Source: Escherichia coli
GTDB taxonomy: Bacteria > Pseudomonadota > Gammaproteobacteria > Enterobacterales > Enterobacteriaceae
Reading direction: 5' to 3' (one strand)
Length of the DNA stretch: 64,000 nt
NCBI RefSeq assembly: GCF_003790525.1
Contig: NZ_CP033635.1
Shown here: positions 28,718-64,000 of the stretch, one piece after another
How positions within the stretch are numbered: position 1 is the first letter of the stretch
How the letters are laid out: every line of letters starts with the position of its first letter
The notes under the pieces: model-generated
Database searches by the model: none
Seen by the model: the letters and a program-made list of their open reading frames with translations, nothing else
Told to the model about the DNA's origin: nothing
Translations under genes and position numbers: made by a program

Positions 28718-28793
28718 GCCCGGATAGCTCAGTCGGTAGAGCAGGGGATTGAAAATCCCCGTGTCCTTGGTTCGATTCCGAGTCCGGGCACCA
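28718..28793 (+). tRNA. pheU: tRNA-Phe (anticodon GAA)
   Basis: gcccggatagctcagtcggtagagcaggggattGAAaatccccgtgtccttggttcgattccgagtccgggcacca is a 76-nt cloverleaf with encoded CCA. Its position next to yjdC identifies pheU. Confidence 0.97.
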
Positions 28794-28969
28794 CTTTCAC
28801 TTCCAGATTCATCTCCCGAACTCCACGAAACTCAAGTATAATCACATCGTTACAAGCAATCTGAACATCCTGAACTCCACCGAACTCTACTGAACTCTCT
28901 CTCAATCAAGCGTTCATTGGGGGCACCGGTGGGGGCTCATTGTGTTCAGTCAGTTTCAGGAGCCCCCAT

Positions 28970-30154
28970 ATGGCACTTACAGCCAGACAGGTCGAAACAG
29001 CCAGACCTAAAGAAAAAGACTATAAACTCTCTGACGAACGTGGTTTATATCTGCTGGTAAAAACCACGGGTGCCCGCTACTGGCGGCTTAAATACCGGAT
29101 AGCAGGAAAAGAGAAAAAACTGGCCCTCGGCGTCTATCCCGACGTCTCCCTTGCTGAAGCCAGAATCAAACGCGACGATGCCCGAAAAATTATCTCCGAA
29201 GGTGGCGACCCGGGCGAAAAGAAGCGAAAGGAAAAACTCACTCAGAAAATCTCTGCCACCAATACGTTCCATGCCCTTGCTACGGAATGGCATCAGCATA
29301 AATCTTTGTCATGGTCTGAAAGTTACGCCAGAAGCGTACTGGAGGCTCTGGATAAAGATATTTTCCCGTATCTGGGCAAACGAAGCGTTACTGATATCCT
29401 CCCGCTGGAAATGCTGGAAATTCTGCGCCGCATAGAAAAACGTGGCTCGCTGGAAAAACTTCGTAAGGTGCGTCAATACTGTAATCAGATTTTTCGTTAT
29501 GCCATCGCCACCGGACGAGCCACTGTCAATCCGGCATCTGAACTGACCAGTACGCTGGCGGCGCCAAAAGCTGCACATTTCCCCCACCTGAGAGCAGATG
29601 AGCTCCCTGTTTTTCTCCGGAAGCTCGCTGAATATCATGGCAGTCCTGTTACCCGCATGGCGACAAATCTGCTGCTTCTGACAGGCCTCAGAACGATTGA
29701 ACTACGGTCCGCTGAATGGTCAGAAATTGATTTTGATAATGCCCTGTGGACAATCCCTGAAAGCCGCATGAAAATGCGACGTAAACATGTCGTACCACTG
29801 TCACGACAGGCCACTGACATTCTGCTGCAGCTCAAAACTTTCTCCGGACAATACCGGCTGGTTTTCCCGGGACGTTGTGATATCAACAAGCCAATGAGCG
29901 AAGCCAGCATCAATATGGTGCTCAAACGTATCGGTTACGATGGCAGGGCAACCGGTCATGGTTTTCGTCACACCATGAGTACCATTCTGCACGAACAGGG
30001 CTTTAATTCTGCCTGGATTGAAATGCAGTTAGCTCATGTGGATAAAAATTCCATCAGGGGTACCTATAATCATGCCCTGTATCTCGATGGTCGCCGTGAA
30101 ATGATGCAATGGTACGCTGACTACATTGATTCACTTTCCATCCAGGAGAGTTAA
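28970..30154 (+). CDS. P4-type tyrosine integrase (DUF4102 N-terminal arm-binding domain)
   Basis: ORF 28940-30154. The ATG at MALTARQVETARPKEKDYKLSDERGLYLLV is preceded by AGGAG. The catalytic region contains HGFRHT and LAHVDKNSIRGTYNH. The gene lies 175 nt downstream of tRNA-Phe in the same orientation, the classical island arrangement. Confidence 0.9.
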   Translation: MALTARQVETARPKEKDYKLSDERGLYLLVKTTGARYWRLKYRIAGKEKKLALGVYPDVSLAEARIKRDDARKIISEGGDPGEKKRKEKLTQKISATNTFHALATEWHQHKSLSWSESYARSVLEALDKDIFPYLGKRSVTDILPLEMLEILRRIEKRGSLEKLRKVRQYCNQIFRYAIATGRATVNPASELTSTLAAPKAAHFPHLRADELPVFLRKLAEYHGSPVTRMATNLLLLTGLRTIELRSAEWSEIDFDNALWTIPESRMKMRRKHVVPLSRQATDILLQLKTFSGQYRLVFPGRCDINKPMSEASINMVLKRIGYDGRATGHGFRHTMSTILHEQGFNSAWIEMQLAHVDKNSIRGTYNHALYLDGRREMMQWYADYIDSLSIQES

Positions 30155-42667: not shown

Positions 42668-44235
42668 CGCTTATTTAACCAGTCACGAACAGAAGCCACA
42701 TTTCCTGACTCAAACGGCAACGCAATCCCTCGTCGGCGGACTTCTTCTCTCAGCAGAAGTCCGCGCTCTATCTCACTGTTTACGCTATCCAGATGAAGTG
42801 AAAAATGATTTAACTCGGCAGCATCAACAGAAAATTCCAGTGCAGTAAGTTCCACAAGATAGCGATCAAGTTCAGCATTGACTGCCTGAAAGTATTCCAG
42901 TGACCGCTGGAATTTGTCCTTAAATTTGTCCAGAAATGCCCATACCCGCTGCATAACCTCGCTATATTCGAGATAATAATTCATCACCAGCCCGAGAATA
43001 CCTGTCGTCAGCGCACCACAAAAGGCAGCAAGCTCTGAACCAAATGGGAAAATAAGGATCTGCGCCATCGCCTCATTTATCATCACCCCTCCGGCAACAG
43101 CCACACCTGCTGCTATCAGTTTAGTGACCGCTTTGGCTAACTGCCCCGGCGATAATCCCTCCGGATTAAATACCAGGACTTTAAAGGCCTGAACGAGATT
43201 GTTCCACATTTCCCTGATAAGCCGGACAATCATTCTTTCCGTTGTCAGGAATATATTTAACAGCGTTGTGGTAATACCTGACAGTATCCCTCCGATGACA
43301 CCATCTTTAAAGGCAATTAAAAAAGAACTGAATTTTTCCTGTACTCGTTCCTGGCAGGCACGTAATGCTGACGTTATTTCGGACAGGCATTTGCCGGCGC
43401 TGAATGAGTTCCGTTGCTGCCTGATAATATGCGGGATTCGTTCCCTCAGTTCGAACCAGATCTCGGCAAGAATAAGCCCCAACATCTGTCGCGTCCCCAT
43501 ACGAAAACCGGAATTAAGCGAAGCACTGGCGACAGCAGTAGCAAACTTACTACTCAGGTAATAGCTCTGATTAATCGTGGCCTCATATTTTTCCCGGGCA
43601 TATTTATCAGCCCTTTCCATACGCTCAGTATCTGCATCAGCTTTTTTTCTCAGACTTATCAGACGTTTCTTTTCCTTTTCTGTCAGCGTTGCCTGAGATT
43701 CAAGCTCTGCTATCTGCCTTAACGTATCTTCTCTGTTTTTCTGCAGCGTGCAAATAAACGCATCCATTGAGTCTGCTTTCTTTGATTTATTGAGCGACTC
43801 ATGAGTGAATGCCAGATTTGAAGCGTCATTTGCCAGTTCTGCACCATCCCGTTCAGCAAGAATTCTCCCCGGATCATCATGAATTTCTTTAGCGGAAATA
43901 ATATGATCCAGATTTTTTTTGTCGTCAGAAGCAAACACCTCGCCTGTATATGCATCAGTAAGAGTCCCTGCCTGATGCGCACGCTTTCCTTCCCGGTTCG
44001 TCGCGATATAGTTCTCATGGCTGTGGTAATGATGAGAATCATATTCGCCACGACCTTCATACCGCTGTCGCTCAGCCTCCGTGGCATAAATGCCATTACG
44101 CACATTATGGATAGTGTCAACATCACCACCCTTACGATCATTTAGCAACAGAAAATCCAGCCCGAATGATGTAACCAGGCTCTTCACCATGGTCTGATGT
44201 AACTCTTCTGTCCAGTCAAATTTTTCCACATTCAT
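42664..44235 (-). CDS. HNH-like nuclease domain fused to a coiled coil and a Gly/Ala-rich hydrophobic C-terminal region
   Basis: 523 aa. The N-terminal region contains GGDVDTIHNVR ... NLDHIISAKEIHDD ... ASNLAFTHESLNKSKK, which fits the D-H...N...N-K pattern of HNH nucleases (compare the Cas9 HNH DVDHIVPQSF...NKVLTRSDKNRGK). A coiled coil follows (aa about 160-230). Hydrophobic segments are GVIGGILSGITTTLLNIFL, LIAAGVAVAGGVMINEAMAQILIF and AAFCGALTTGILGLVMNYYL. Confidence 0.6.
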   Translation of the reverse strand: MNVEKFDWTEELHQTMVKSLVTSFGLDFLLLNDRKGGDVDTIHNVRNGIYATEAERQRYEGRGEYDSHHYHSHENYIATNREGKRAHQAGTLTDAYTGEVFASDDKKNLDHIISAKEIHDDPGRILAERDGAELANDASNLAFTHESLNKSKKADSMDAFICTLQKNREDTLRQIAELESQATLTEKEKKRLISLRKKADADTERMERADKYAREKYEATINQSYYLSSKFATAVASASLNSGFRMGTRQMLGLILAEIWFELRERIPHIIRQQRNSFSAGKCLSEITSALRACQERVQEKFSSFLIAFKDGVIGGILSGITTTLLNIFLTTERMIVRLIREMWNNLVQAFKVLVFNPEGLSPGQLAKAVTKLIAAGVAVAGGVMINEAMAQILIFPFGSELAAFCGALTTGILGLVMNYYLEYSEVMQRVWAFLDKFKDKFQRSLEYFQAVNAELDRYLVELTALEFSVDAAELNHFSLHLDSVNSEIERGLLLREEVRRRGIALPFESGNVASVRDWLNKR

Positions 44236-44281
44236 GTTATTTCACTTCTTGTAAAGCCGGGCTTTAACGCCCGGTAAATCA

Positions 44282-45361
44282 TTAACTCTGGGATGAAAAA
44301 TCATCAAATTTCACAACCGAACTGGCCAGTACATCATCCAGCTCATCCTTATTAATAACGTTCATTCCATTATCATCCGTTTCCATTTCAATAACGTTAT
44401 CTTTTATCACTGCCTCACCATTTTCCTGTTTCCGCGGTTTAAACAGTGGCGTTGTAATAATATCCGTCATAATAGCGGCCAGTGAATATCCATGGTCAAT
44501 AAGCACAATGACTTCATCTGATACACTGATATCCTGTTGTTCTGTAATAACAGAATGCATGGATTTAAGCGGCTCAAAATAGTGTTTAATAAATACAGCA
44601 TGCATTCTGTTCAGTGCAGCGAGAATTTCATCAACGTATTGATTAACTTTTGCAAAATGCTCCCGGGCCAGATTCATTTTCTTAACTGCCCGTGCAACAT
44701 CGCAGGCACACTGATGGGCATTTTCAAGAGCTTTCGTCGCATGTCTGTCGTAAGCCCAGCCCGCAATGGCAATCAACGGTGCAGCCACTGCGGTGCCTAA
44801 TACCATTGCGCCGCCGGCCATTCCCATGCCCCCTGCAGCCAGTGAGCCCCCACCAATTGCCGCCATCGTCGCGTTATAAGCCGCGGCACCAGAAAGCGCT
44901 GCAATGGGTGTACCTGTAGAAGCCGCAGCAAATGCCATCACTCCGCTATACACAGCAAAACCCGCAGCAGCCCCGGAAACTCCGGCAGCAACGACCGTAC
45001 TGAGATATTCTGTCGCTGAAATGGCCAGGTTCTGAATCTTATTGATGTTATGTTGCGGGACACTCAGTTTCAGGTCTTTATTGCCCTCTTTTTCCAGACG
45101 CGCCAGGAGCTCAGCAGCAATCCTGTCGAACTCACTGAAATCTTTACCAATCTCAAGCTCTTTATTTCCGAGCGTTGTTAATTTTGATGATGTCTGAGCT
45201 TCAGCCTGCTCAAATTTTTCTTTATGCTCCTCGTAACGCTCTTTTGCTTTTTCGAGGATATCCTCTGCTTCTGACTTTTTTTGATATCCATCGTAAGCTT
45301 TTTTTCCGCCGAATGCCGCAGCGCCGGCAGCCACACCCAAAATAATAAAAGGTAACGCCAT
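44282..45361 (-). CDS. glycine-zipper membrane protein, function unknown
   Basis: 359 aa. It has an N-terminal TM helix (MALPFIILGVAAGAAAFGG), a charged coiled coil, and then a roughly 95-aa Ala/Gly-rich hydrophobic block (VVAAGVSGAAAGFAVYSGVMAFAAASTG...GGGSLAAGGMGMAGGAMVLGTAVAAPLIAIAGWAY). The C-terminal part is a soluble acidic domain. Confidence 0.55.
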   Translation of the reverse strand: MALPFIILGVAAGAAAFGGKKAYDGYQKKSEAEDILEKAKERYEEHKEKFEQAEAQTSSKLTTLGNKELEIGKDFSEFDRIAAELLARLEKEGNKDLKLSVPQHNINKIQNLAISATEYLSTVVAAGVSGAAAGFAVYSGVMAFAAASTGTPIAALSGAAAYNATMAAIGGGSLAAGGMGMAGGAMVLGTAVAAPLIAIAGWAYDRHATKALENAHQCACDVARAVKKMNLAREHFAKVNQYVDEILAALNRMHAVFIKHYFEPLKSMHSVITEQQDISVSDEVIVLIDHGYSLAAIMTDIITTPLFKPRKQENGEAVIKDNVIEMETDDNGMNVINKDELDDVLASSVVKFDDFSSQS

Positions 45362-45409
45362 TCTTTTCCTCCTGTACAGATTGCTTTATCATCAGTCAAC
45401 TGAAATATT

Positions 45410-53457: not shown

Positions 53458-56400
53458 TTATACCGTTGCTGCGTCGGTCACAACACCCAGCTCTTCGACT
53501 ATCTTTTGTAGGCGGGCGATCTGCTCTATATCAGGGAACACACCGGTAACGCCTTCGTTGTGGATATGCGTAAAAGGCTGTTCAAAGAGCTGCCGCATTT
53601 CAATGGTGCCGTAATCGCGAATGTGGTTTTTCAGCAATGACAGGAAGCGCAATTGCTGGCTGGTCAGGCTGTTATCAGCGGCGAACTGAGCAAAGCGCAC
53701 TTCCACCGCGTCGCTGTCCATCCCGATGATGGTACGCAATAGTTTATCCAGGCTGGCGGTCGCCTGCGGGTAGAACTCTTTCAGTGCCCGGATATCAACG
53801 TTAGGGTTCTGGATCAGCACCAGTTTAGCCAGTTCATCCAGCTCGCTTTGCGTCACAGGCTCGCCGTTGCGGATTTTCTTCAGCACCGGATTTTGCTGGA
53901 ACAGCGGCTCCAGCGCTCCCTGCACCTGCTGGCGATAGAGTTTGAAGTCAATCGAGCGGATGTTGGTTTTGCGGTTTTCCGTCTGAATCAGGTTCGCATC
54001 TTCGGTAATATCCACCTGTATCGAACCAAATTTCGGCGTCGCGTCTTTTTCCATCAGGTGCATGATGCCGCGCAGATGAATGCGGATATCTTCCAGCTCT
54101 TCCAGGCTGGCCTGCTTCCACCAGCCTAAATCACGAAGCTGATTGATCCGCGGTCCTTGCTGTTGGACCTGCGCCAAATGCGGCGGCAGGCGCTCCACTT
54201 TTTCGACGATGACCGGCCAGAGCACATCCAGCTCTTCCGGGTTGGTATAACGGGCAGTTTGCGCCGCCAGAATATCCATATCAAAGCGCATAGCGTCGCT
54301 TTGCCCGCGCACGTCCAGCCACTGCATCAGCGGGGCCAGGACAGATAGCAAATCCTGCTGTGTTTTCGGGGAAAGCTGGCGCAGCACTTTTTCATCGCTG
54401 TACTGCGCTTTTTGATGCCACTTTTCCTGGACGGCAATCGACTTTTCATCCAGTGCATTGATTTGCTCGCGTAGCTGGTGAGCAACTAAATCCACCGCCT
54501 GTTTGTCGAATTTACGTTGCGCAGCGGCCCCCAGCATAACCCACGCTTCGAAGCGTTTTTGTGCAAGCGATTTTGTCGCTGTGACTTCGGCCTCTTCGGT
54601 ATGCAGTTCGTGATACTCAAAATTGCCCCAGTGATCGAAAATGCGGAATTTCTGTTTATCCAGAGGTTTGCCGTTATCGTCGTAACCGTACAACCCCGGA
54701 CAGAGGCGCGTACCACGGCCAATCATCTGCCAGAACTTCACTTTTGATTTGACCGGTTTGGCAAAGACCAGATTCACAATTTCCGGGACATCAATACCGG
54801 TATCGAGCATGTCAACGGAGATAGCGATGGTCAGCTCTTTGTTGGTGCTTTCATCCAGCCCTTTAAAATCATCAATCAGTTGCTCGGCGCGGGGATCGTA
54901 ATTGTCGATGACCTGGCAGAAGCGCCCGGCAAACTGCGGGTACATATCGTCGAATAATTCATTCAACAGCAGCGCGTGTTTGTGGTTACGGGCGAAAATG
55001 ATGGTTTTACCTGGCAACTGGCCGTCCCGATCTTTCAGGCCATTTTCCATCAGGTTACGCAGGATATAGCGGTTGGTGTCTTTGTTGTAGATCGCCTCAT
55101 CCAGCGCCTTGCCATCAAACTCCAGCGTATTGGGATCTATGCCTTGTTCTTCCAGCTCGCGGATTTGTGCGTCGCTTAATTTCTCCCGTTTGATGCCTTC
55201 GCGCAGGAATTCTGTGGTGTGCGTGACAACCTCATAGGGAACCAGATTGTTATCGGCGATGGCATCTTCCAGGCTGTAGTTGGCGGTAGGAATACGTCCT
55301 TCACAACCAAACAGGCCGAAAGTGGTTTTACTCACCATGTCAATCGGCGTGGCCGTCAGGCCAATCTGGAGGGCATCAAAATACTTAAACAGATCGCCGT
55401 AAACGTTGTAGATAGAGCGATGGGATTCATCGGCGATGATCAAATCGAAATAACCAACATCGAAATGGTCCATGATTTTCATCATACCAGGATAGGTGGC
55501 GATGTAGATCCTAGCATTCTGCCTGTCTGCTTTTTTCGATTTCCCGACCACATACAGCGGCTCATTGGTGAATTGATTAAAGGCATTCGCCGCCTGTTTA
55601 CGTAGTTCCTTGCGGTCGCAAAGAAACAGGACGCGTTTTACCCAGCGGGCATCAATCATTAGTTTGCTTAGCGCTATTGCCACGCGGGTTTTGCCTGTAC
55701 CCGTAGCCTGAACAATTAGCGATTGCCGGTATTTGTTGGTAAACCGCTCGCTGACACGGGCAATGGTTTCAAGCTGGTACAAACGTCCGGCAACGGCCTT
55801 ACCTTCGTTATCTTTTACGTGCGGCACACTGTTCAGCGGAAGACGGGTTTCACGCTGTTGAATAAGATATTGCAGGCTTTCCTTGCTGTAGAAGCCAAAC
55901 ACCCGACGCGGGGGATAACCATGAGTTTTATGGTCATCCCACAGCCAGATATCATAGCCGTTGGTGTAGAAGATGATCGGACGCTGGTCGTATTCTTTTT
56001 CCAGCCAGTCTGCATACAGCCGGGCCTGAATTCGTCCTTGCTCGGCATTGACGCTGGTTTTTTTTGCTTCCACCACCGCCAGCGGTTTGTGTGCCTCATC
56101 CCACAAGACATAGTCCGCATAACCGTCTCCGGTCGCGGTAGGTTGTTCTTTAACGGGATGTTCCTGCGTAACCTGATCGGTATTTTTAAGGCCTTCGCCT
56201 ACATTCCAGTCAGCAGCAAGCAGGCGAGAGTCAATCAGGCGACGGCGGGTTTCCGCTTCATCAATAGAGAGAATATCGGCAACATGCTGGTTACGCGCTC
56301 TGGCTTCATTCAGGCGTTGAGTGAGGTGTTCGGCCTTTTCCTGTTCTTGCTGTAGTGCGCGTTGCAGCGCCAGTTCGCGCTCACGGCTTTCATCCTGAGC

Positions 56401-56874
56401 CCTGATTGCATCTTCCAGACGTTTTTCATCTGCACGACCTGAAGATTGTGTTAATGGAGGGAGTGTAAATTTGGGGCAGTCATCAACATTACCGTGGGCG
56501 TAGCGAACATACAGCCAAATTCCCAACAAATACGCTTCTTTGAGCAGCCAGTAAGTATCTTTAGCTTTGATACGTCCGCCGTGCGCGGCACGGTTGCCAT
56601 GGATACGCAGCGCATCCATTTTCATGATGATGGCTTCCGGCATCATGCTGGTAAAGACATCAGCATTCATTAAATCGTAAAGATTAGCCTTAATACCTTC
56701 CGGCAACCGCTCCTGACGATACAACCAGCGCACCATCAATTCGGTGTAGTTGCGCAGCTTGACCAGACAACTTTCCGGATCGGAGTGAACATAGCGTTCC
56801 GCCATACACGCGAGTTCAGCCAGTTCCGGCCACTGGCTGCGCAACATTTCAAAATTGAGAGACTGCTCCATCAA
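53458..56874 (-). CDS. hsdR: type I restriction endonuclease/translocase subunit, long form
   Basis: 1138 aa. It has a PD-(D/E)xK-like nuclease core (GYADYVLWDEAHKPLAVVEAKK), SF2 helicase motif I VQATGTGKT and motif II IIADESHRS. An additional roughly 150-aa N-terminal helical domain and a long C-terminal extension are also present. Confidence 0.9.
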   Translation of the reverse strand: MMEQSLNFEMLRSQWPELAELACMAERYVHSDPESCLVKLRNYTELMVRWLYRQERLPEGIKANLYDLMNADVFTSMMPEAIIMKMDALRIHGNRAAHGGRIKAKDTYWLLKEAYLLGIWLYVRYAHGNVDDCPKFTLPPLTQSSGRADEKRLEDAIRAQDESRERELALQRALQQEQEKAEHLTQRLNEARARNQHVADILSIDEAETRRRLIDSRLLAADWNVGEGLKNTDQVTQEHPVKEQPTATGDGYADYVLWDEAHKPLAVVEAKKTSVNAEQGRIQARLYADWLEKEYDQRPIIFYTNGYDIWLWDDHKTHGYPPRRVFGFYSKESLQYLIQQRETRLPLNSVPHVKDNEGKAVAGRLYQLETIARVSERFTNKYRQSLIVQATGTGKTRVAIALSKLMIDARWVKRVLFLCDRKELRKQAANAFNQFTNEPLYVVGKSKKADRQNARIYIATYPGMMKIMDHFDVGYFDLIIADESHRSIYNVYGDLFKYFDALQIGLTATPIDMVSKTTFGLFGCEGRIPTANYSLEDAIADNNLVPYEVVTHTTEFLREGIKREKLSDAQIRELEEQGIDPNTLEFDGKALDEAIYNKDTNRYILRNLMENGLKDRDGQLPGKTIIFARNHKHALLLNELFDDMYPQFAGRFCQVIDNYDPRAEQLIDDFKGLDESTNKELTIAISVDMLDTGIDVPEIVNLVFAKPVKSKVKFWQMIGRGTRLCPGLYGYDDNGKPLDKQKFRIFDHWGNFEYHELHTEEAEVTATKSLAQKRFEAWVMLGAAAQRKFDKQAVDLVAHQLREQINALDEKSIAVQEKWHQKAQYSDEKVLRQLSPKTQQDLLSVLAPLMQWLDVRGQSDAMRFDMDILAAQTARYTNPEELDVLWPVIVEKVERLPPHLAQVQQQGPRINQLRDLGWWKQASLEELEDIRIHLRGIMHLMEKDATPKFGSIQVDITEDANLIQTENRKTNIRSIDFKLYRQQVQGALEPLFQQNPVLKKIRNGEPVTQSELDELAKLVLIQNPNVDIRALKEFYPQATASLDKLLRTIIGMDSDAVEVRFAQFAADNSLTSQQLRFLSLLKNHIRDYGTIEMRQLFEQPFTHIHNEGVTGVFPDIEQIARLQKIVEELGVVTDAATV

Positions 56875-57450
56875 TCATCGCCTTATGTCGTGGATACAAC
56901 AGCATTTCTGGAAAGAATATCACACTAATTTGGCCGACGAAGTGAGCCGGATGGCATATGGTGGTGATGTGTTTAACGACATAACTGCTCTAACGGTCAG
57001 ATCCTTGGTTTTCGCCCATCAATGGGCATCTTCAGCCATGGCTACTCACAGGATACCTTGCTAACCAATGAAGGTATGGCTGATCATCTATGGGATATGT
57101 TTTTTGAGCCAATAAAACGATGGAGCTTTTCTCCAAGTTCATCATTAATGAATTTTGTTTCAATGCATTAATCAACTCTTCGCATTTTCGCTATCTTTTA
57201 TCCACTTCCCTTTTGAAAAGGTGGGTATCTACGTTACCAATACTGGTTTAATGGCTACATACGGCGGTCCGTTTACGCTTACGGTAAAGATAAGCGATAA
57301 GCTCCCAGCGCTAGGACCGGGAGCTCTGCATAGCTACCACCATTTAGGATAGTCGTTAAAAGCACGTAATATTGATTGCCTGGCAGCAGGCATCAAGCTT
57401 TTCACTTCCTTTTGAAAGGGAGATACCACCATTGATATCTTCCTTCATAC

Positions 57451-58025
57451 ATGACCAATTCAGCACACCAGCGACTGGATATGGCGGGAAATGGTGGCCC
57501 GGGGGTTACAGGCAGTGAAACCATCGTCAGGGATGCTGTTGCCAAATGGCGTAAAGGCTGGAACCCACCAGTTACTACTGCCGCCAGACTTCCTTCAGTG
57601 TCCCGGGTAAGCCGCTGGTTGATGCCCTGGATAATAATCAGGGGTGAAGAAAATTATGCTTCCCGATTTATTAGTCTGATGTGTGAAAAAGAACCGGCGC
57701 TGAAAATAGCGCAGCAACTAGTACTTGAGTTCTACCGTATTCTGAAAACCCCAAATAAATCAAATCTAAGCAGTTGGTTCACTCGAGTCCACGAAAACGG
57801 TTCAGCAGAACTTCGGCGCGTGGCTGCGGGGATGGAAGCTGATGCTGCGGCTATATGTGAGGCAACCAGCAGCCGCTGGAGTAACGGTGTTGTCGAAGGT
57901 CATGTAAATCGCCTGAAGATGCTGAAACATCTGATGTATGGTCGAGCCGGATTTGAACTACTTAGGCAGAGGGTAATGAGTCCACTGGCATGAAAATCTC
58001 CACCTAGGTTGCGGAAGAGCCACTT
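57451..58025 (+). pseudogene. ISL3-family transposase C-terminal fragment plus terminal inverted repeat
   Basis: The 180-aa ORF ends ...RWSNGVVEGHVNRLKMLKHLMYGRAGFELLRQRVM, the conserved ISL3 transposase tail. ggttgcggaagagcc (reverse complement GGCTCTTCCGCAACC) follows at about 58007-58021 and looks like an ISL3-type terminal repeat. The N-terminal two-thirds of the transposase are absent. Confidence 0.6.
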
Positions 58026-58292
58026 TTGCACCGTTCGTGATAATACCGTAAATAAGCCTCTGAAAGTTATAGGATATGACACAACTAAAGAAGTCTGTGT
58101 GAACCGCGTAATACCAAGTGAATTGCTTGTTATATCTGTTTAATTAAACCTAATCGACCAGCCTTACTGGAGAGGCTGGTTAGTGATTAACTGGGAGTAT
58201 TGCAATTAGATGTGTTCTACAGGCCCACGAAGGTAGATGGCTGCCAGAGTTCATCTTCGCGTGTAAAAGACTCTTAGTTGATTAATTCTAAT

Positions 58293-58601
58293 TTATCGAT
58301 CTATTACGCGATCATAATATTCGATGATTTGCAGTGCAACAGCAGCAATTTGTACTGCTTCCTCCCTACTGGTACCGGCTGCTTTACCACCAAAACGATC
58401 ATGGAGGACAGCCTGATGAAATTCTCCCACCTCTTCTCCGAGAATCGCTCCCCAGATAAAAGGATCTTGATTACGGTCTGCCCCCCATTTGGCATCCTGC
58501 CGTTGCATTTCCGCTAGCACGTCAGACAGGGCTTTAGTGTCTTGATGTTTACCTTTCATGTTTCCCTTACGAATCCGTGATTTTAAGTCCATCATTAACA
58601 T
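58293..58601 (-). CDS. small MazG-like (all-alpha NTP pyrophosphohydrolase) protein
   Basis: 102-aa ORF, or 88 aa from the internal MKGKHQD. It has the EExxE-type metal site in WGAILGEEVGEFHQAV and a second acidic helix REEAVQIAAVALQIIEYYD, typical of MazG/dimeric-dUTPase-like folds. Confidence 0.6.
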   Translation of the reverse strand: MLMMDLKSRIRKGNMKGKHQDTKALSDVLAEMQRQDAKWGADRNQDPFIWGAILGEEVGEFHQAVLHDRFGGKAAGTSREEAVQIAAVALQIIEYYDRVIDR

Positions 58602-58702
58602 TTAATATGTGCAGAGTCCATTAATTCGCTACATCTCATTTTGTGAATGAGCGTTGAGTTTGCTATAAACGTAGCAACCAAGAAAAATAAAAGTGGATAA
58701 TT

Positions 58703-59029
58703 TTGTTCATTACCTTTCAAAGCAAGAAGTTAAGGACTATTTGCGAGAGTATGCATGAGGCAAATGAGATCTTTGGTGACAAAGTGGCATCAAGACTACG
58801 CTCGCGACTTTCCGATCTTTCCGTGACAGACAACATATTACTGTTGCCCGTAGGTTCGCCGGAGGTCTGCTTTGAGGATGGGGAAGAGTGTATTACAATT
58901 ACCATTCTCGGTGATGTAAAAATGGGATTTGTCTGTGGGAATACAGTTCAGCCCAAAAATCAAGATAATACAATTAACTGGTCCCGAGTTAGCCGGATAC
59001 GGTTAGTGTTCATAGGTGACGTGAAATGA
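58703..59029 (+). CDS. HigB-like / plasmid-maintenance killer-type toxin (RelE superfamily)
   Basis: 108 aa with a TTG start. The N-terminus (M)FITFQSKKLRTICE resembles the F-x-x-KKL-x-x-C opening of HigB-type killer proteins. The stop overlaps the downstream gene by 4 nt. Confidence 0.5.
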   Translation: MFITFQSKKLRTICESMHEANEIFGDKVASRLRSRLSDLSVTDNILLLPVGSPEVCFEDGEECITITILGDVKMGFVCGNTVQPKNQDNTINWSRVSRIRLVFIGDVK

Positions 59030-60108
59030 TAGTTACGCAGGACTTCCAGCCTGACTGGGTATCTCCACCCGGTGATACAATTATAGATCTAATGGATGAA
59101 CATGGGCTTTCTGGTGAAGAACTGAGTAAGAGGATTGGATTGTCTCTTATCCGGGGTCAGCAACTTCTTGAAGGAAAAATCCGACTCAATGAGTCTCTGG
59201 CTTGTAAGCTTGAGGAGTTATTCAACGTATCGACAGACTTCTGGATCAAGCGCGAAGTCGCTTATCGCCAGCAAATTGGATACCTCGAGAAAGTGAATAA
59301 TGATTGGCTCGAATCATTGCCTGTACGTGATATGATGGAGTTTGGTTGGATCCCCAAAACTACAACTCGGGAAAGTAAATTCCAGCACTGCCTATCGTTT
59401 TTCGGAATAAATTCCGTCAATGATTTTTTTTATAAAATTCAGTCAGATGCTCCTTTGGTCGCTTTTCGTAAATCTCTTAATCTGGCAACCGAGCCTATGG
59501 CCGATTTGGTGTGGCTGACTAGGGCTGCACAACTTACCTCAAACCAAAACTGTGCTGTATGGGATAAAGAGGGGCTGATAGCATTGTTGCCAGAACTGCG
59601 CAAAGCTACAAATGAACCCGACATGAGGATTTTTATCCCTTACATTCGCGACCTTCTCGCCACTGCTGGAGTTTCTCTCGTTGTGTTGCCAACGCCAAAG
59701 GGATGTCGGGCAAGTGGTGCTACCTGCTTTTTTACACCAGATCGCGCAACCCTAGTCATGAGTTTCCGTTATCTGACCGATGACCATTTTTGGTTTACGC
59801 TGTTTCATGAGATTGGGCATCTCATCTTGCATGAAGCTGTCCGAGTTCGCGTAGAAGGTAAAGATAGTCTTTCGTCGGAAGAGGAAAAGGAAGCAGATAA
59901 ATTTGCCGTTGATGTTCTTATCCCAGAAGAATACCGGCAGCAACTTAGTCGCTATGGTGTCCGGCATTGGAAAGAGATCATCCGGTTAGCTAGGAAAATG
60001 GGGGTATCCAAAGGGATCGTACTGGGATATTTGCAGCATGAAGGTAATATACCTTTTTCTCACCTTAATCGGTTTAAAGTGAGATTCCGTAAAGAAGATA
60101 TCGTCTGA
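59026..60108 (+). CDS. XRE-type HTH fused to an ImmA/IrrE (M78, COG2856) zinc metallopeptidase
   Basis: 360 aa with an N-terminal HTH region (GDTIIDLMDEHGLSGEELSKRIGLSLIRGQQLLEGK). The C-terminal part has the HEXXH motif in WFTLFHEIGHLILHE. Confidence 0.7.
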   Translation: MIVTQDFQPDWVSPPGDTIIDLMDEHGLSGEELSKRIGLSLIRGQQLLEGKIRLNESLACKLEELFNVSTDFWIKREVAYRQQIGYLEKVNNDWLESLPVRDMMEFGWIPKTTTRESKFQHCLSFFGINSVNDFFYKIQSDAPLVAFRKSLNLATEPMADLVWLTRAAQLTSNQNCAVWDKEGLIALLPELRKATNEPDMRIFIPYIRDLLATAGVSLVVLPTPKGCRASGATCFFTPDRATLVMSFRYLTDDHFWFTLFHEIGHLILHEAVRVRVEGKDSLSSEEEKEADKFAVDVLIPEEYRQQLSRYGVRHWKEIIRLARKMGVSKGIVLGYLQHEGNIPFSHLNRFKVRFRKEDIV

Positions 60109-60110
60109 TA

Positions 60111-61055
60111 TCAGCCGCCGAAATAGACATAACGGTCAGGTGATTTCTGCCAGTTGCACAACGCATCTTCAATAACCTGCATTCTCAAGTAGGGTGCAGG
60201 AATAATTGCCGCAAGGTCAGCTAGTTTTTCATTCAATACGTCTATTGTGTCACCAGCAGTCCGGCTATTGCTGAAAAGTAGCCGGCTTCCTTGAAGGGGC
60301 CCGGTTGCTCCATTCAGAAAAGCATGACCCGGCTCTACATCCAGAAGTCCCGTTTTCTTGAGCATAGTTAGGTAATCAAATTTTGCGGTTCGTCCAAATG
60401 AGATCACGGCATTTAGCCCTGAATACAATAGTTCGAATAAAGATTCTGGTGAAGATGAAAAGCTCTTGGCCTCTGCAAACCTAGCCTCATGACTGTGTGT
60501 AGCACCAATGAATCCGATGTAAGAGCGAAAAACCGCAGGTATTGAACGACGAGAGTGATATTTCTTCGTTTCATATTTCCGATGGTTACCATATTGTCTT
60601 AGGCTACTGTTAGCTGTCAACTCATCAGAGACGCTGGCGAACCATTGTTCAAAAGCAGCAAAGTCATCAGTTATCGTATCCCATGTCCACGTTTGTGTAC
60701 CGAGTCCACTGTATATATCTCGACACAAAATCCAGCCGGTTTTGTTACTCTTGCCGAAATGTGTGGCAAGGAAAACCAGCCAGCAGGCTTCATCGTAATT
60801 GTTGTCACGAAGATAAAGGCAGGCAGCGCGGAGAGGATCAAAAACATCAGAATTCGGCTCTTTTCGTAACGGAGTCATATAATCGGTCCGTAATGCAAGA
60901 GTTTCCACATAGCGTATACGACGTATACTGTCGATAATCTGACAGGCTAAAACATCAAAGCAGGCAGGAGAACTTAGGCCATTTAGGTTGTGTTCATTGC
61001 GGCTAAAATTTTGCAAATTACTAACCAGCTGACTGATTTGATTATGTCTTTTCAT
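60111..61055 (-). CDS. hypothetical 314-aa protein translationally coupled to the TS-like gene (possible aGPT-pyrophosphorylase-like / HhH-glycosylase-fold protein; unverified)
   Basis: The ATG overlaps the TS-like stop (ATGA). No classical motif is certain. The segments GNHRKYETKKYHSRR, FGRTAKFDYLTMLKKTGLL and NGATGPLQG remind me of the family annotated as alpha-glutamyl/putrescinyl thymine pyrophosphorylase clade 3. This rests on memory only. Confidence 0.35.
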   Translation of the reverse strand: MKRHNQISQLVSNLQNFSRNEHNLNGLSSPACFDVLACQIIDSIRRIRYVETLALRTDYMTPLRKEPNSDVFDPLRAACLYLRDNNYDEACWLVFLATHFGKSNKTGWILCRDIYSGLGTQTWTWDTITDDFAAFEQWFASVSDELTANSSLRQYGNHRKYETKKYHSRRSIPAVFRSYIGFIGATHSHEARFAEAKSFSSSPESLFELLYSGLNAVISFGRTAKFDYLTMLKKTGLLDVEPGHAFLNGATGPLQGSRLLFSNSRTAGDTIDVLNEKLADLAAIIPAPYLRMQVIEDALCNWQKSPDRYVYFGG

Positions 61056-62032
61056 TGTAGTCTTCCTTCAAAAATAAACCGATATTCCTGATTTTTCATT
61101 GCAGCCAACTCTTGGAAGGCTAGTCCTTTGTGGTTGGGTGTATGTGAACGTAACAAAAAGTGGATTTTTAATATACGCAATAAATCCTTCCAGTAGTCAT
61201 TCAAGGAAGTAGTGTCAATATCAAATTCCTTATTCTCTCGAAGAGCTTTTTCTGCCTCAAGCAGGGGTAAGATATCATCTAAGGAATGCATTTCAGGCAT
61301 CGATCCCATGACTGGTAGGGTGCTCATGAACCCCTCTTTCTGAAGAGCCTTCACTTTTTCTAAATCATTTTTATAGAGATGTAGGCTGGATACAAAGTGA
61401 TGATAGTGACCCAATTCGCATCCTATCAAGCGGGCAACTAATTCCTGTAGCATCGTGAACGCAAATACATCATGAGGCAGCCCCATAAAGGCATCGTTAG
61501 AACGCATACAAACAAATAGATGCAGCTCTTCACATCTGACAATAAACTGCATAGATATTGTACAAGGAATATCTACGTATTCTCGCTGTTCAGTTTTTGA
61601 GGGCACCAAGTCTGAGGCATCGAAAAGCTGTATTACTGCACGTCTGGTAGGTTTTTTCTCCTGCAAAAGGTTGATAACATTTTTTAGCTGATTATATAAA
61701 CCACGCATATTAAACAACCGTGGCCCGTAACCACCATGTATTTTCCCATCTGACTCAGCGGATTCAGCGTAACGTGGTATGAAGTGTTTTATAAACTCAA
61801 GATCGTTCTGAGCTGAGAGATACCACAGAAATTCACCTAAGCAACTAATTAGTTTTCCTCGGGATTCTGTTCTACTTATTCTTCGGCGGGGGTCGGTAAG
61901 GACAAGATAGGCACCAAGAATCTCTAGAGTTGATCCTTTTGTAGGATCGTTACTGAGTCCATCCGCTAGGATAGCTTGATGAACATCGTTTATCAGATCG
62001 TCAACACACTCAGCCGTTACCAAAAGAGTCAT
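61052..62032 (-). CDS. thymidylate synthase superfamily protein (ThyA / dNMP hydroxymethylase-like)
   Basis: 326 aa. It aligns by eye to the E. coli ThyA core. [14 protein letters not shown] matches [26 protein letters not shown] matches LAPCHAFFQFYV, retaining the catalytic Cys. [27 protein letters not shown] matches [35 protein letters not shown] matches GDTHLYSN. The N- and C-termini are divergent. Confidence 0.75.
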   Translation of the reverse strand: [326 protein letters not shown]

Positions 62033-62199
62033 TTTCTACCTTTTCCTGTATGGTAGTAACTAATCATTACCACCTGTATGGCATATAGTCAATATAGTAT
62101 CAATATCAACATGGTTCACAGGGTAAGTAAGACTTGATCTTACCCAGCAATAGTGGACACGCGGCTAAGTGAGTAAACTCTCAGTCAGAGGTGACTCAC

Positions 62200-62498
62200 A
62201 TGACAAAAACAGTATCAACCAGTAAAAACCCCGTAAACAGCATTCGCCTGAATTTCTCAGTGAAGCCCTGAAACTTGCTGAACGCATCGGTGTTGCTGCC
62301 GCAGCCCGTGAACTCAGCCTGTATGAATCACAGCTCTATGCGTGGCGCAGCAAACTGCAGCAACAAATGAGTTCGTCAGAGCGTGAAAGTGAACTGGCCG
62401 CTGAAAATGCCTGCCTGAAGCGGCAACTGGCGGAGCAGGCAGAGGAACTGGCTATCCTCCAAAAGGCCGCGACATACTTTGCGAATCGTCTGAAATGA
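62200..62498 (+). pseudogene. insE: IS3 orfA (insE) inactivated by a 1-nt deletion in an A-run
   Basis: It reads ATG ACA AAA ACA GTA TCA ACC AGT AAA AAC CCC GTA AAC ... TGA, with a stop after 23 codons. K-12 IS3 has AGT AAA AAA CCC CGT AAA CAG (one more A). The ORF track lists no orfA-sized ORF of 60 aa or more here, and the element is 1 nt shorter than 1258 bp. Confidence 0.75.
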
Positions 62499-63361
62499 AG
62501 TATGTCTTTATTGAAAAACATCAGGCTGAGTTCAGCATCAAAGCAATGTGCCGCGTGCTCCGGGTGGCCCGCAGCGGCTGGTATACGTGGTGTCAGCGGC
62601 GGACAAGGATAAGCACGCGTCAGCAGTTCCGCCAACACTGCGACAGCGTTGTCCTCGCGGCTTTTACCCGGTCAAAACAGCGTTACGGTGCCCCACGCCT
62701 GACGGATGAACTGCGTGCTCAGGGTTACCCCTTTAACGTAAAAACCGTGGCGGCAAGCCTGCGCCGTCAGGGACTGAGGGCAAAGGCCTCCCGGAAGTTC
62801 AGCCCGGTCAGCTACCGCGCACACGGCCTGCCTGTGTCAGAAAATCTGTTGGAGCAGGATTTTTACGCCAGTGGCCCGAACCAGAAGTGGGCAGGAGACA
62901 TCACGTACTTACGTACAGATGAAGGCTGGCTGTATCTGGCAGTGGTCATTGACCTGTGGTCACGTGCCGTTATTGGCTGGTCAATGTCGCCACGCATGAC
63001 GGCGCAACTGGCCTGCGATGCCCTGCAGATGGCGCTGTGGCGGCGTAAGAGGCCCCGGAACGTTATCGTTCACACGGACCGTGGAGGCCAGTACTGTTCA
63101 GCAGATTATCAGGCGCAACTGAAGCGGCATAATCTGCGTGGAAGTATGAGCGCAAAAGGTTGCTGCTACGATAATGCCTGCGTGGAAAGCTTCTTTCATT
63201 CGCTGAAAGTGGAATGTATCCATGGAGAACACTTTATCAGCCGGGAAATAATGCGGGCAACGGTGTTTAATTATATCGAATGTGATTACAATCGGTGGCG
63301 GCGGCACAGTTGGTGTGGCGGCCTCAGTCCGGAACAATTTGAAAACAAGAACCTCGCTTAG
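62495..63361 (+). CDS. insF: IS3 transposase orfB (DDE/rve domain)
   Basis: 288 aa beginning [32 protein letters not shown]. It contains the motifs [16 protein letters not shown] and [11 protein letters not shown]. Confidence 0.93.
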
Positions 63362-63511
63362 GCCTGTGTCCATATTACGTGGGTAGGATCACATAACCTG
63401 AAATGGCACTAATGGCCAGAGCTTACTAATACATAATCCCTACAGGATGTAGCCACCAGTTTTGTTCATCCGGTATTCTGATTTGGTAACATGCTCCAGA
63501 AAGGAAGAAAT

Positions 63512-64000
63512 ATGTACTGCAATGAATTAAAAGAATTTGCGCAAGAGCAGGAACAAAAACTTATCAGTGCGCTTGCTGATACCAGAGAGCACCCGTCCCC
63601 CGATGGTGAAACAAGAAGCCGGGATAATTATCAACGGGATTACGCGCGTATTCTGTATTCATCATCATTTCGCAGGCTGCAGGGAAAGATGCAACTTTTT
63701 GAAATTGATCCTGAAAAATTCAACAGAAACAGATTAACGCACAGTCTTGAGGTTGCTCAGATCGCCCGAAGTATCGCGTCAGACCTCAAACTGATTAACC
63801 CGGTGGTGGTTGAACTGGCAGCGCTGGCGCATGACATCGGAAATCCTCCTTTCGGTCATTCCGGTGAAAAACTGCTTAATGAACTGTCTGAAGAAATCGG
63901 CGGCTATGAAGGTAATGCACAGGCGCTACGTATCCTGAGAAAACTGGAGAAGAAATTTTCATACTGCAACGGATTAAATCTGACTCACCGTAGTTTACTT
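63512..64000 (+). CDS. Dgt-family dGTP/dNTP triphosphohydrolase (HD domain), 5' 163 codons; continues past the right edge
   Basis: This gene is not in the ORF track because it has no stop in the window. Manual translation from the ATG at 63512 (RBS AGGAAG) gives MYCNELKEFAQEQEQKLISALADTREHPSPDGETRSRDNYQRDYARILYSSSFRRLQGKMQLF...NRLTHSLEVAQIARSIA...AALAHDIGNPPFGHSGE...YEGNAQALRIL. These are the canonical dGTPase motifs (RD-x-RI-x-S-x-FRRL, RLTHSLEV, HD-GNPPFGH, EGNAQ). Confidence 0.85.
   Translation, partial: MYCNELKEFAQEQEQKLISALADTREHPSPDGETRSRDNYQRDYARILYSSSFRRLQGKMQLFEIDPEKFNRNRLTHSLEVAQIARSIASDLKLINPVVVELAALAHDIGNPPFGHSGEKLLNELSEEIGGYEGNAQALRILRKLEKKFSYCNGLNLTHRSLL

What the first reader, a model, noticed from the sequence alone, without database searches (positions are those of the whole stretch)
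63512..64000. Dgt-type dGTPase gene missed by the ORF track (open at the window edge)
A 163-codon open frame runs to the last base and carries all the N-terminal hallmark motifs of dGTP triphosphohydrolases, including the HD metal site (AHDIGNPPFGH). The track shows only a 66-aa out-of-frame ORF here. E. coli has a housekeeping dgt elsewhere, so this is an island-borne paralogue. It is consistent with the dNTP-depleting anti-phage dGTPases described in the literature.
Basis: partly seen in the sequence, partly recalled or inferred. Interest (0 to 1): 0.5.

Follow-up and report, generated by a model that had tools for sequence, protein, structure and literature searches.

The report
Island-borne Vdg-like anti-phage dGTPase gene
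The last 489 bases of the window are the start of an intact, already-annotated accessory dGTP-degrading enzyme gene on a tRNA-Phe genomic island; it belongs to a family whose Vibrio member starves phages of dGTP, so it is real but ordinary.

Summary
Window 63512-64000 (+) holds the first 163 codons of a 410-aa HD-domain dGTP triphosphohydrolase, and the AHDIGNPPFGH motif lies at 63827-63859. The ORF tool does not list it only because it omits ORFs that run off the window end. In a genome collinear with the window (MRY15-117), and in others identical over this stretch, the gene is complete (1233 nt, WP_000271619.1, named a dGTPase family protein in RefSeq).

It is an accessory paralogue. It occurs in 325 of 5426 complete E. 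coli genomes, while housekeeping dgt occurs in 5424. The two proteins are 24% identical. Its G+C is 42.9% against 51.4% for the core part of the window. It sits about 35 kb into a tRNA-Phe island, 6.6 kb from a type I restriction-modification operon.

It is neither Dgt-type in the strict sense nor in the Sp-dGTPase clade of Tal et al. (29% identity; NCBIfam anti-phage models score below cut-off). Its clade is that of Vdg, the octameric anti-phage dGTPase of Vibrio cholerae (PDB 9VWA), at 56% identity. All dGTP-pocket residues are conserved.

Homologues sit in prophages, integrase-flanked islands and Klebsiella plasmids, with no conserved partner gene.

This is a new member of a known kind, of low interest. 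Activity and defence have not been tested for this protein.

The parts
63512..64000 (+). First 163 of 410 codons of an accessory HD-domain dGTP triphosphohydrolase (WP_000271619.1 in identical genomes). This part holds allosteric-site residues R37, R42, R46, Y49, Q83 and K148. It also holds substrate residues Q61, L62 and N135, metal ligands H77, H107 and D108, and the catalytic dyad H116/E119.
   Evidence: translation and family scores. (complete gene in identical or collinear genomes). (residue mapping onto Vdg, PDB 9VWA).
63392..63511 (+). Native 5' region of the gene (120 nt), with an AGGA ribosome-binding site at 63502-63505. It lies between the IS3 end and the ATG.
   Evidence: It is identical to the upstream region of the IS3-free strain MY732. 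It is conserved upstream of the Proteus and Edwardsiella homologues. The strict sigma-70 scan found no promoter here, there is no Rfam match, and there is no unusual fold (z = 0.53).
62135..63391 (+). IS3 copy inserted 120 nt upstream of the dGTPase start. A 1-nt deletion in an A run of orfA frameshifts the transposase. It separates the dGTPase from the ThyA-like/aGPT-Pplase module.
   Evidence: alignment with an intact IS3 in strain 97-3250. (annotated 'IS3 family transposase, frameshifted'). (no IS3 at this place in MY732).
28718..28793 (+). tRNA-Phe gene (the pheU side, next to dsbD/aspA/dcuA). It is the integration site of the island that carries the dGTPase.
   Evidence: ARAGORN; flank present in 5425 of 5426 genomes. 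In strain W2-5 the same island sits at the other tRNA-Phe locus, next to yqgA/speC.
28940..30154 (+). Tyrosine recombinase (island integrase) next to tRNA-Phe.
   Evidence: ORF; annotated 'tyrosine-type recombinase/integrase' in the 99.9%-identical W2-5 island.

Best explanation
The window ends inside a single-gene, horizontally mobile anti-phage system: a Vdg-like HD-domain dGTP triphosphohydrolase.

Inferred mechanism, by homology to Vdg, Sp-dGTPase and Dgt. The homo-oligomeric enzyme binds dGTP in a pocket made of Q61, L62, D224, E341 and Y220 (base and sugar) and N135, K167, Y168 and K179 (triphosphate). It cleaves dGTP to deoxyguanosine plus tripolyphosphate at a metal held by H77, H107, D108 and D216, using the H116/E119 dyad. 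A nucleotide site at the dimer interface (R37, R42, R46, Y49, Q83, K148, V292) binds dAMP in Vdg and raises activity there. During infection, dGTP is drained and phage DNA replication stalls.

Shown here: the gene, its completeness in identical genomes, its clade, conservation of these residues, purifying selection, and its accessory, mobile, defence-island setting.

Inferred, not shown: enzymatic activity, oligomeric state, the allosteric ligand, expression downstream of IS3, and phage protection by this particular protein.
For: - **Family membership.** The full protein passes TIGR01353 (316.5 bits against a 152.35 cut-off). It scores 364.6 bits on PADLOC dGTPase. It has Pfam HD and HD_assoc domains.
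- **Closest solved structure.** The best PDB sequence match is Vdg (9VWA/9VWC/9VWG) at E 1e-114, with 56% identity over 387 columns. PMC13519002 shows that Vdg hydrolyses dGTP and protects E. coli against phiX174, T2, T4, T5, T6 and T7, and that H114A abolishes this.
- **Residue conservation.** Nine of nine dGTP-pocket residues, the HD/HE residues and seven of eight dAMP-site residues are conserved. They are invariant in 40 close and 73 more distant homologues.
- **Phylogeny.** An NJ tree of the N-terminal core groups the window gene with Vdg (98 of 100 bootstraps), apart from the Sp-dGTPase group and Dgt.
- **Model.** The AF2 model is confident (pLDDT 89.4), and its best folds are anti-phage dGTPases and dNTPases.
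- **Selection.** dN/dS is 0.07-0.09 against the Proteus and Edwardsiella genes.
- **Accessory and mobile.** It occurs in 325 of 5426 E. coli genomes and has 42.9% G+C against 51.4% for the core. Homologues lie at a Proteus prophage end, in a Klebsiella island beside a 2092-aa NACHT protein, in an Edwardsiella lambdoid prophage, next to a Dickeya P4-type integrase, in Stx2c phages and on 77 Klebsiella plasmids.
- **Defence neighbourhood in the window.** Nearby are a type I R-M operon with an embedded AAA ATPase, a PD-Lambda-2_B-like gene, and PDC-M09A and PDC-M40B-like genes.
Against: - No experiment exists for this protein, and its accession appears in no searched paper.
- It fails the two NCBIfam 'anti-phage dGTPase' models: 284 bits against a 400 cut-off, and 252 against 383.
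- It is only 29% identical to Sp-dGTPase. Tal et al. found that homologues below 45% identity were next to defence genes in only 10% of cases.
- Its subclade lacks Vdg's C-terminal tail (Y400/K402), and the tail's docking residues (E342, D346) are not conserved. Vdg R31 is replaced by Glu, with an invariant Arg two residues later. Oligomer and regulator may therefore differ.
- An IS3 lies 120 nt upstream, and the simple scan found no consensus promoter in the remaining leader. Expression is unproven.
- How such an enzyme is kept harmless before infection is not known, even for Vdg.
Confidence: 0.7

Rival explanations
1. It is an active dNTPase, but its role is not phage defence. It might trim the nucleotide pool or control mutation rate for the host or the island, as proposed for housekeeping Dgt.
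For: The enzyme family includes housekeeping members. Tal et al. note that homologues below 45% identity to Sp-dGTPase are rarely next to defence genes and may be housekeeping. This protein is 29% identical to Sp-dGTPase and fails the NCBIfam anti-phage models.
Against: The host already has dgt (5424 of 5426 genomes). This gene is patchy (6% of genomes). In every context sampled it rides on prophages, islands or plasmids, often beside NACHT or restriction genes. Its closest characterised relative, Vdg, is anti-phage.
Confidence: 0.12
2. It is an intact-looking but silent passenger. The IS3 insertion 120 nt upstream, and rearrangements downstream, have cut it off from its promoter or context, so it does nothing in this strain.
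For: IS3 ends at 63391. The strict sigma-70 scan finds no promoter between IS3 and the ATG. In window-type genomes the downstream 189-aa ORF is truncated and replaced by a papA fragment and an ISCR2 resistance module. A few genomes carry 5'-truncated copies (14EC020 and CT282).
Against: The reading frame is intact and at least 99% identical in 319 genomes. Within E. coli, differences are mostly synonymous against UPEC_U013 (3 synonymous, 1 non-synonymous) and give dN/dS 0.34 against MY732. The 120-nt leader is unchanged relative to the IS3-free strain and is conserved in other genera, so the proximal promoter may well lie within it. The ribosome-binding site is intact.
Confidence: 0.1
3. It is one component of a multi-gene system. 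Candidate partners are the adjacent nucleotide-modification module (ThyA-like, aGPT-Pplase3, MazG-like), the downstream 189-aa ORF, or a Clover-like regulator.
For: Three nucleotide-metabolism genes lie within 5 kb upstream. In many E. coli genomes a 189-aa ORF follows the gene by 100 nt on the same strand. Clover shows that dNTPases can have a regulatory partner.
Against: Strains 97-3250 and MY732 keep the dGTPase without the ThyA-like module. The 189-aa ORF is truncated in window-type genomes. That ORF has no PADLOC hit and only a sub-threshold Pfam hit. It is not annotated next to the homologue in any of the seven contexts examined outside E. coli. No nucleotidyltransferase gene is adjacent, and similarity to CloA is weak (E 4e-25, 23% identity).
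Confidence: 0.05

Closest known systems
Vdg, the octameric anti-phage dGTPase of Vibrio cholerae O1 (DGT1B_VIBCH; PDB 9VWA, 9VWC, 9VWG; Shi et al., Nat Commun 2026, PMC13519002)
   Same: It falls in the same clade (56% identity, E 1e-114; NJ bootstrap 98 of 100). It is a stand-alone protein of about 400 aa with HD and HD_assoc domains. The catalytic dyad and all nine dGTP-pocket residues are identical, and seven of eight dAMP-site residues are conserved. Most dimer-to-octamer contacts are conserved (E236, A264, S270, E271, R322, K323, Y344, Y374 and E386, with K324 replaced by R). The NCBIfam profile is the same: only TIGR01353 passes.
   Different: The window gene's enterobacterial subclade (40 sequences at 60% identity or more) lacks the C-terminal tail of about 10 residues that carries Y400/K402. 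The tail's docking residues E342 and D346 are not conserved in this subclade. Vdg R31, which contacts the dAMP phosphate and excludes dADP/dATP, is E/D/N here, with an invariant Arg two positions later (R35). There are insertions of 9 and 5 residues. Octamer formation, dAMP activation and phage protection are untested for this protein.
Sp-dGTPase / Ec-dGTPase (E. coli G177) clade of defensive dGTPases (Tal et al. 2021/2022; NCBIfam NF041026 and NF003701; PDB 9P8W)
   Same: It shows the same chemistry and fold, acts as a single-gene system, lies near restriction-modification genes, and is hit by the PADLOC dGTPase model.
   Different: It is a different clade. It is 410 aa against 455-463 aa and 29% identical to Sp-dGTPase. 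It scores below both curated cut-offs (284 against 400; 252 against 383). It falls under the 45% identity line that Tal et al. used for the defence-enriched group.
Housekeeping E. coli Dgt (b0160; PDB 4X9E; NCBIfam NF003429)
   Same: It belongs to the same HD-domain dNTP triphosphohydrolase superfamily. The metal ligands, the His/Glu dyad and the conserved Tyr align.
   Different: It is 24% identical and is 410 aa against 505 aa. It lacks Dgt's large insertions. It scores 156 bits against a 405 cut-off. Dgt is present in 5424 of 5426 genomes at mtn-dgt-degP, whereas this gene is in 325 genomes on a tRNA-Phe island.
Clover CloA/CloB (Yamaguchi et al. 2025, PMC12265719; PDB 9P8S-9P8V), and Ogmios, the V. 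cholerae integron dGTPase (bioRxiv 10.1101/2024.07.02.601686)
   Same: These are anti-phage dNTPase effectors of the same superfamily. Ogmios is also a single-gene cassette.
   Different: There is no CloB-type nucleotidyltransferase next to the gene, and identity to CloA is only 23%.

Membership tests
HD-domain dGTP/dNTP triphosphohydrolases (NCBIfam TIGR01353; Pfam HD + HD_assoc) | Score above the curated family cut-off | tested here: met
   TIGR01353 scores 316.5 bits for the full protein and 187.4 bits for the 163-aa window fragment, against a cut-off of 152.35. Pfam HD scores 54.5 bits and HD_assoc 55.6 bits.
HD-domain dGTP/dNTP triphosphohydrolases (NCBIfam TIGR01353; Pfam HD + HD_assoc) | H...HD...D metal ligands and the His/Glu catalytic dyad | tested here: met
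   H77, H107, D108, H116 and E119 lie in the window. D216 and Y220 lie in the part beyond the edge, seen in identical genomes. All are invariant in 113 homologues and align with Dgt H69, H117, D118, H126, E129, D268 and Y272. The Dgt numbering is from my own knowledge of the published Dgt structures.
HD-domain dGTP/dNTP triphosphohydrolases (NCBIfam TIGR01353; Pfam HD + HD_assoc) | Hydrolysis of dGTP to deoxyguanosine and tripolyphosphate | not testable with these tools
   This needs purified protein and HPLC or LC-MS.
Vdg-type octameric anti-phage dGTPases (PDB 9VWA) | Close sequence relationship and a shared clade | tested here: met
   E 1e-114 with 56% identity over 387 columns. The clade has 98 of 100 bootstrap support in an NJ tree of the N-terminal core.
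Vdg-type octameric anti-phage dGTPases (PDB 9VWA) | dGTP pocket residues (Q59, L60, N133, K165, Y166, K176, Y214, D218, E330) | tested here: met
   All nine are identical: Q61, L62, N135, K167, Y168, K179, Y220, D224 and E341.
Vdg-type octameric anti-phage dGTPases (PDB 9VWA) | dAMP allosteric site (R31, R35, R40, R44, Y47, Q81, K146, V286) | tested here: inconclusive
   Seven of eight residues are conserved. R31 is E33 here and E/D/N throughout the close subclade, with an invariant Arg at position 35 instead. Ligand identity cannot be read from sequence.
Vdg-type octameric anti-phage dGTPases (PDB 9VWA) | Dimer-to-octamer interface, including the C-terminal tail Y400/K402 docking on E342/D346 | tested here: inconclusive
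   The core contacts are conserved (E242, A270, S276, E277, R333, K334, R335, Y355, Y391, E403). The tail is absent: the protein ends 17 residues after the GMMD motif, against 24-48 in Vdg-like sequences. The docking residues are not conserved in the subclade. The actual oligomeric state cannot be tested here, because only a monomer model could be made.
Vdg-type octameric anti-phage dGTPases (PDB 9VWA) | Catalysis-dependent protection against phages | not testable with these tools
   Only context evidence is available: a defence island and mobile elements.
Sp-dGTPase-type anti-phage dGTPases (Tal et al.; NCBIfam NF041026 / NF003701) | Score above the curated cut-offs, or at least 45% identity to Sp-dGTPase | tested here: not met
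   NF041026 scores 284.1 bits against 400, and NF003701 scores 252.3 against 383. Identity to Sp-dGTPase (9P8W) in the structural alignment is 29%. The gene sits in a separate branch of the tree.
Housekeeping Dgt (NCBIfam NF003429, E. coli dgt) | Equivalog score, length of about 505 aa, and conserved mtn-dgt-degP position | tested here: not met
   It scores 156.1 bits against a 405 cut-off. It is 24% identical, with gaps in 27% of the alignment. It lies on a tRNA-Phe island, while dgt itself is present in 5424 of 5426 genomes.
Clover (CloA dNTPase + CloB nucleotidyltransferase) | Adjacent CloB-type nucleotidyltransferase partner and CloA-like sequence | tested here: not met
   The upstream neighbour is IS3. 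In relatives, the downstream neighbour is a papA fragment or a 189-aa ORF with no above-threshold Pfam hit and no PADLOC hit. CloA matches at E 4e-25 and 23% identity.

The most novel reading that the evidence does not exclude
The enterobacterial subclade to which this gene belongs may be a functional variant of Vdg. It has no C-terminal tail, its tail-docking residues are relaxed, and the Arg/acidic pair in the allosteric-site loop is swapped. It could therefore assemble into a different oligomer and/or respond to a different nucleotide signal than dAMP, for example one with more phosphates, because the Arg that excludes dADP/dATP in Vdg is missing. That would be a different way of sensing infection.
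Probability: 0.25. Interest if true: 0.35.

Novelty: new member of a known kind. Interest (0 to 1): 0.15.

Why it matters
It adds one more nucleotide-depletion gene to the defence repertoire of a tRNA-Phe island that also carries restriction-modification genes and, in relatives, multidrug-resistance genes. It also shows that about 6% of complete E. coli genomes carry a Vdg-clade dGTPase that the curated 'anti-phage dGTPase' models do not name. For phage-therapy or host-range prediction such genes matter in practice. Conceptually nothing here is new. The only open point is the subclade-specific change in the allosteric loop and the C-terminus.

Tried and rejected
- **Literature search for the accession.** A search for WP_000271619 found nothing.
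- **Tal et al. supplementary tables.** I searched them for six carrier strains and found nothing. The stored table is cut, and their filter was length over 400 aa, at least 25% identity and at least 90% overlap. Their synthesised sequences are stored only to 400 nt, so the tree could use only the N-terminal core of 97 columns.
- **Promoter and RNA.** The strict sigma-70/terminator scan found no promoter in the 120-nt leader. There was no Rfam match and no unusual fold. The promoter remains unidentified.
- **Strain CM2.** It matched the tRNA-Phe flank at 100%, but it is not collinear at the far end: its IS3 is truncated and the layout differs. I used MRY15-117 as the collinear reference instead.
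- **Foldseek PDB library.** It ends in April 2026 and lacks 9VWA. The fold search therefore confirmed the superfamily but could not rank Vdg.
- **Downstream 189-aa ORF as a partner.** I rejected it.
- **Coupling to the ThyA-like/aGPT-Pplase module.** I rejected it.
- **First bootstrap script.** It timed out, and I re-ran it with a faster distance measure.

Full report
**1. Observation**

Window 63512-64000 (+) translates into 163 codons without a stop, starting at an ATG preceded by AGGA at 63502-63505. The motif AHDIGNPPFGH is at residues 106-116 (63827-63859).

The ORF tool lists only an out-of-frame 66-aa ORF (63537-63737) in this stretch. Its description says ORFs that run off an end are not listed. 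The 'missed gene' is therefore an edge effect.

The fragment alone is far beyond chance:
- PADLOC dGTPase: E 1.4e-63.
- NCBIfam TIGR01353: 187.4 bits against a cut-off of 152.35.
- Pfam HD: E 2.5e-13.

**2. The whole gene**

A megablast of 63385-64000 finds 325 of 5426 complete E. coli genomes, all chromosomal. In 319 of them identity is at least 99%. In every listed row the stretch is annotated 'deoxyguanosinetriphosphate triphosphohydrolase family protein'.

Window 51385-64000 is 100% identical to strain W2-5. Strain MRY15-117 is collinear with the window from the tRNA-Phe flank to the end, with distances that match exactly. In both strains the frame continues to 410 codons (1233 nt, WP_000271619.1).

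The source genome itself cannot be read past base 64000.

**3. Not the housekeeping gene**

- K-12 dgt occurs in 5424 of 5426 genomes.
- The two proteins share 24% identity, with gaps in 27% of the alignment.
- The Dgt equivalog model NF003429 scores 156 bits against a cut-off of 405.
- G+C is 42.9% against 51.4% for the core part of the window.

**4. The island**

- The gene lies about 35 kb into an island that starts at tRNA-Phe (28718-28793).
- An integrase lies at 28940-30154.
- The left flank (dsbD/aspA/dcuA) is core genome.
- W2-5 carries the same island at the other tRNA-Phe locus.

**5. Which dGTPase**

The full protein passes only the general TIGR01353 model (316.5 bits). It fails both 'anti-phage dGTPase' models: NF041026 scores 284 against 400, and NF003701 scores 252 against 383. 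PADLOC's dGTPase model scores 364.6 bits.

The E. coli G177 enzyme tested by Tal et al. is a different protein of 455 aa with a different N-terminus.

The best match among solved structures, by sequence, is Vdg of V. cholerae O1 (9VWA/9VWC/9VWG). It matches at E 1e-114 with 56% identity over 387 columns. The next is the Shewanella enzyme 9P8W at E 5e-48, and Dgt follows at 9e-22.

Vdg gives the same NCBIfam pattern as the window gene.

An NJ tree of the 97-column N-terminal core places the window gene with Vdg and 18 database homologues at 98 of 100 bootstraps. The five Tal enzymes form a separate group (71 of 100), and Dgt is the outgroup. This is a short alignment and a distance method, so it is indicative rather than definitive.

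An AF2 model of the 98%-identical cluster representative is confident (pLDDT 89.4, pTM 0.89). Its best structural matches in a PDB copy that predates 9VWA are:

| Structure | Identity |
|---|---|
| Sp-dGTPase (9P8W) | 29% |
| V. cholerae VC1979 (7LWZ) | about 30% |
| CloA (9P8S-9P8V) | 23% |
| T. thermophilus dNTPase (2DQB) | about 30% |
| E. coli Dgt (4X9E and others) | 22% |

**6. Residue-level comparison with Vdg (PMC13519002)**

Conserved features:
- The catalytic dyad H114/E117 corresponds to H116/E119.
- All nine dGTP contacts are identical.
- Seven of eight dAMP-site residues are identical.
- Most dimer-to-octamer contacts are conserved.
- Across 113 full-length homologues the catalytic and dGTP-pocket residues are invariant, and the dAMP-site residues other than R31 are invariant or nearly so.

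Systematic differences in the 40 sequences at 60% identity or more to the window gene:
- Vdg R31 is R in 68 of 73 Vdg-like sequences but E/D/N in this subclade. An Arg two positions later is invariant here (R35), where Vdg-like proteins are mostly acidic or Gln (E, D or Q in 47 of 73).
- The C-terminal tail carrying Y400/K402 is absent, and its docking residues E342 and D346 are not conserved.
- There is a 9-residue insertion at about residues 370-378.

The fold and chemistry are therefore secure. The oligomeric state and the allosteric ligand are open.

**7. Selection and mobility**

dN/dS is 0.09 against the Proteus gene and 0.07 against the Edwardsiella gene (dS is high, so these are rough values).

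Homologues were found in these settings:

| Host | Setting |
|---|---|
| Proteus | End of a prophage, next to the integrase |
| Klebsiella variicola | CP4-like island beside a 2092-aa NACHT protein |
| Edwardsiella | Inside a lambdoid prophage, between recET and the repressor |
| Cronobacter | Small islet next to amn |
| Dickeya | First gene after a P4-type integrase |
| Stx2c-converting phages | 64% identity, about 2 kb from the att duplication |
| Klebsiella plasmids (77) | 60-80% identity (63.6% in the listed rows); the one plasmid examined carries a NACHT gene about 3.7 kb away |

No neighbouring gene recurs across these contexts, so this is a single-gene system.

**8. Setting in the window**

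- **IS3.** An IS3 copy (62135-63391, frameshifted orfA) sits 120 nt upstream. The 120 nt are identical to the IS3-free strain MY732. They are conserved upstream of the Proteus and Edwardsiella genes. No consensus promoter, Rfam family or notable structure was found there.
- **Further upstream.** There is a ThyA-like gene plus an aGPT-Pplase3 gene, an XRE/ImmA gene, a MazG-like gene, a type I R-M operon with an embedded AAA ATPase, and WYL, PDC-M09A and PDC-M40B-like genes.
- **Independence from the ThyA-like module.** Strains 97-3250 and MY732 keep the dGTPase without that module.
- **Downstream.** Many E. coli genomes have a 189-aa ORF there with no recognisable family. It is truncated in window-type genomes, where a papA fragment and an ISCR2 floR-tet(A)-aph-sul2 module follow.

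**9. Mechanism**

By homology, the product hydrolyses dGTP to deoxyguanosine and tripolyphosphate at an HD metal centre. It is probably enhanced by a nucleotide bound at the dimer interface. It limits phage DNA synthesis by draining dGTP.

This is shown for Vdg and Sp-dGTPase. It is inferred here.

Rival readings are a non-defence pool enzyme, a silent passenger behind IS3, or part of a larger system. Each has some support but is less likely, for the reasons given in the rival explanations.

**10. Verdict**

- The gene is not 'Dgt-type' in the strict sense.
- It belongs to the Vdg clade, not the Sp-dGTPase clade.
- It is already annotated in RefSeq and would be called 'dGTPase' by PADLOC.

It is a new, untested member of a known kind of single-gene defence system, and its interest is low. 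The most novel reading still open is a subclade-specific change of oligomer or allosteric signal.

Noticed in passing
window 60111-62032 (-), with 58293-58601 (-): A thymidylate-synthase-like gene (61052-62032, Pfam PF00303 E 5e-25) overlaps by 4 nt a gene for an alpha-glutamyl/putrescinyl-thymine pyrophosphorylase clade 3 / amino-acid:DNA transferase (60111-61055, PF18746 E 4.7e-90, PF18724 E 9e-59). To my knowledge this pairing is typical of phage thymidine-hypermodification pathways, yet here it sits on an E. coli chromosomal island. It has no PADLOC hit, and a MazG-like gene is nearby. The whole module (58490-62134) is absent from strain 97-3250. It may deserve a finding of its own.
   Followed up: partly
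window 58703-60108 (+): A 360-aa XRE helix-turn-helix plus ImmA/IrrE metallopeptidase protein (59026-60108) matches PADLOC PD-Lambda-2_B at E 9e-30. It is preceded by an overlapping 108-aa ORF (58703-59029) with no family hit. This may be a toxin-antitoxin-like or partial PD-Lambda-2-like unit.
   Followed up: partly
window 48094-56874 (-): A type I restriction-modification operon comprises hsdR (53458-56874), hsdM (51760-53394) and hsdS (50621-51763). It continues into an AAA ATPase (48990-50612; PADLOC PDC-M55A, NsnB and AriA-like) and a 313-aa ORF (48094-49035) with no hit. This looks like an abortive-infection-type pair embedded in the R-M operon.
   Followed up: partly
window 42664-46306 (-): A WYL-domain regulator (45410-46306) is followed by genes matching the PADLOC candidate systems PDC-M09A (44282-45361, E 3.5e-22) and PDC-M40B (42664-44235, E 1.3e-42). 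RefSeq names the last one 'ATP--cob(I)alamin adenosyltransferase', which looks like a misnomer.
   Followed up: no
window 28718-37895: The same island is found at either of the two tRNA-Phe loci in different strains: the pheU side here and in MRY15-117, and next to yqgA/speC in W2-5. Its first cargo is a raffinose/sucrose-type sugar utilisation cluster (alpha-galactosidase, MFS transporter, GH32, porin).
   Followed up: partly
window 62135-63391; L002:10749-12000: The IS3 copy has a 1-nt deletion in an A run of orfA. It also has a stretch of about 100 nt in orfA that differs strongly from the intact IS3 of strain 97-3250, so it is mosaic. In 97-3250 the sequence left of IS3 joins directly to window position 58490, which suggests an IS3-associated deletion or rearrangement.
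   Followed up: partly
L001:13361-24616 and L004:10361-18616 (beyond the window end in identical or collinear genomes): Directly downstream of the dGTPase, window-type genomes carry a papA fragment with papB/papI-like regulators, then an ISCR2 module with floR, tet(A)/tetR, aph(6)-Id, aph(3'')-Ib and sul2. Defence genes and multidrug-resistance genes therefore share one chromosomal island.
   Followed up: no
L002:13460-14029; L014:8452-9021: A 189-aa ORF of unknown family follows the dGTPase by 100 nt in many E. coli genomes. Its only hit is a sub-threshold Pfam match to Sulf_transp. An H-NS paralogue and a ProQ/FinO-like gene come after it. The ORF is truncated in window-type genomes.
   Followed up: partly
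L012:6718-8540: In Cronobacter the dGTPase homologue is preceded by a PfkB-kinase/nucleoside 2-deoxyribosyltransferase fusion and a QueC-like gene. This is another nucleotide-related pair of unknown role.
   Followed up: no
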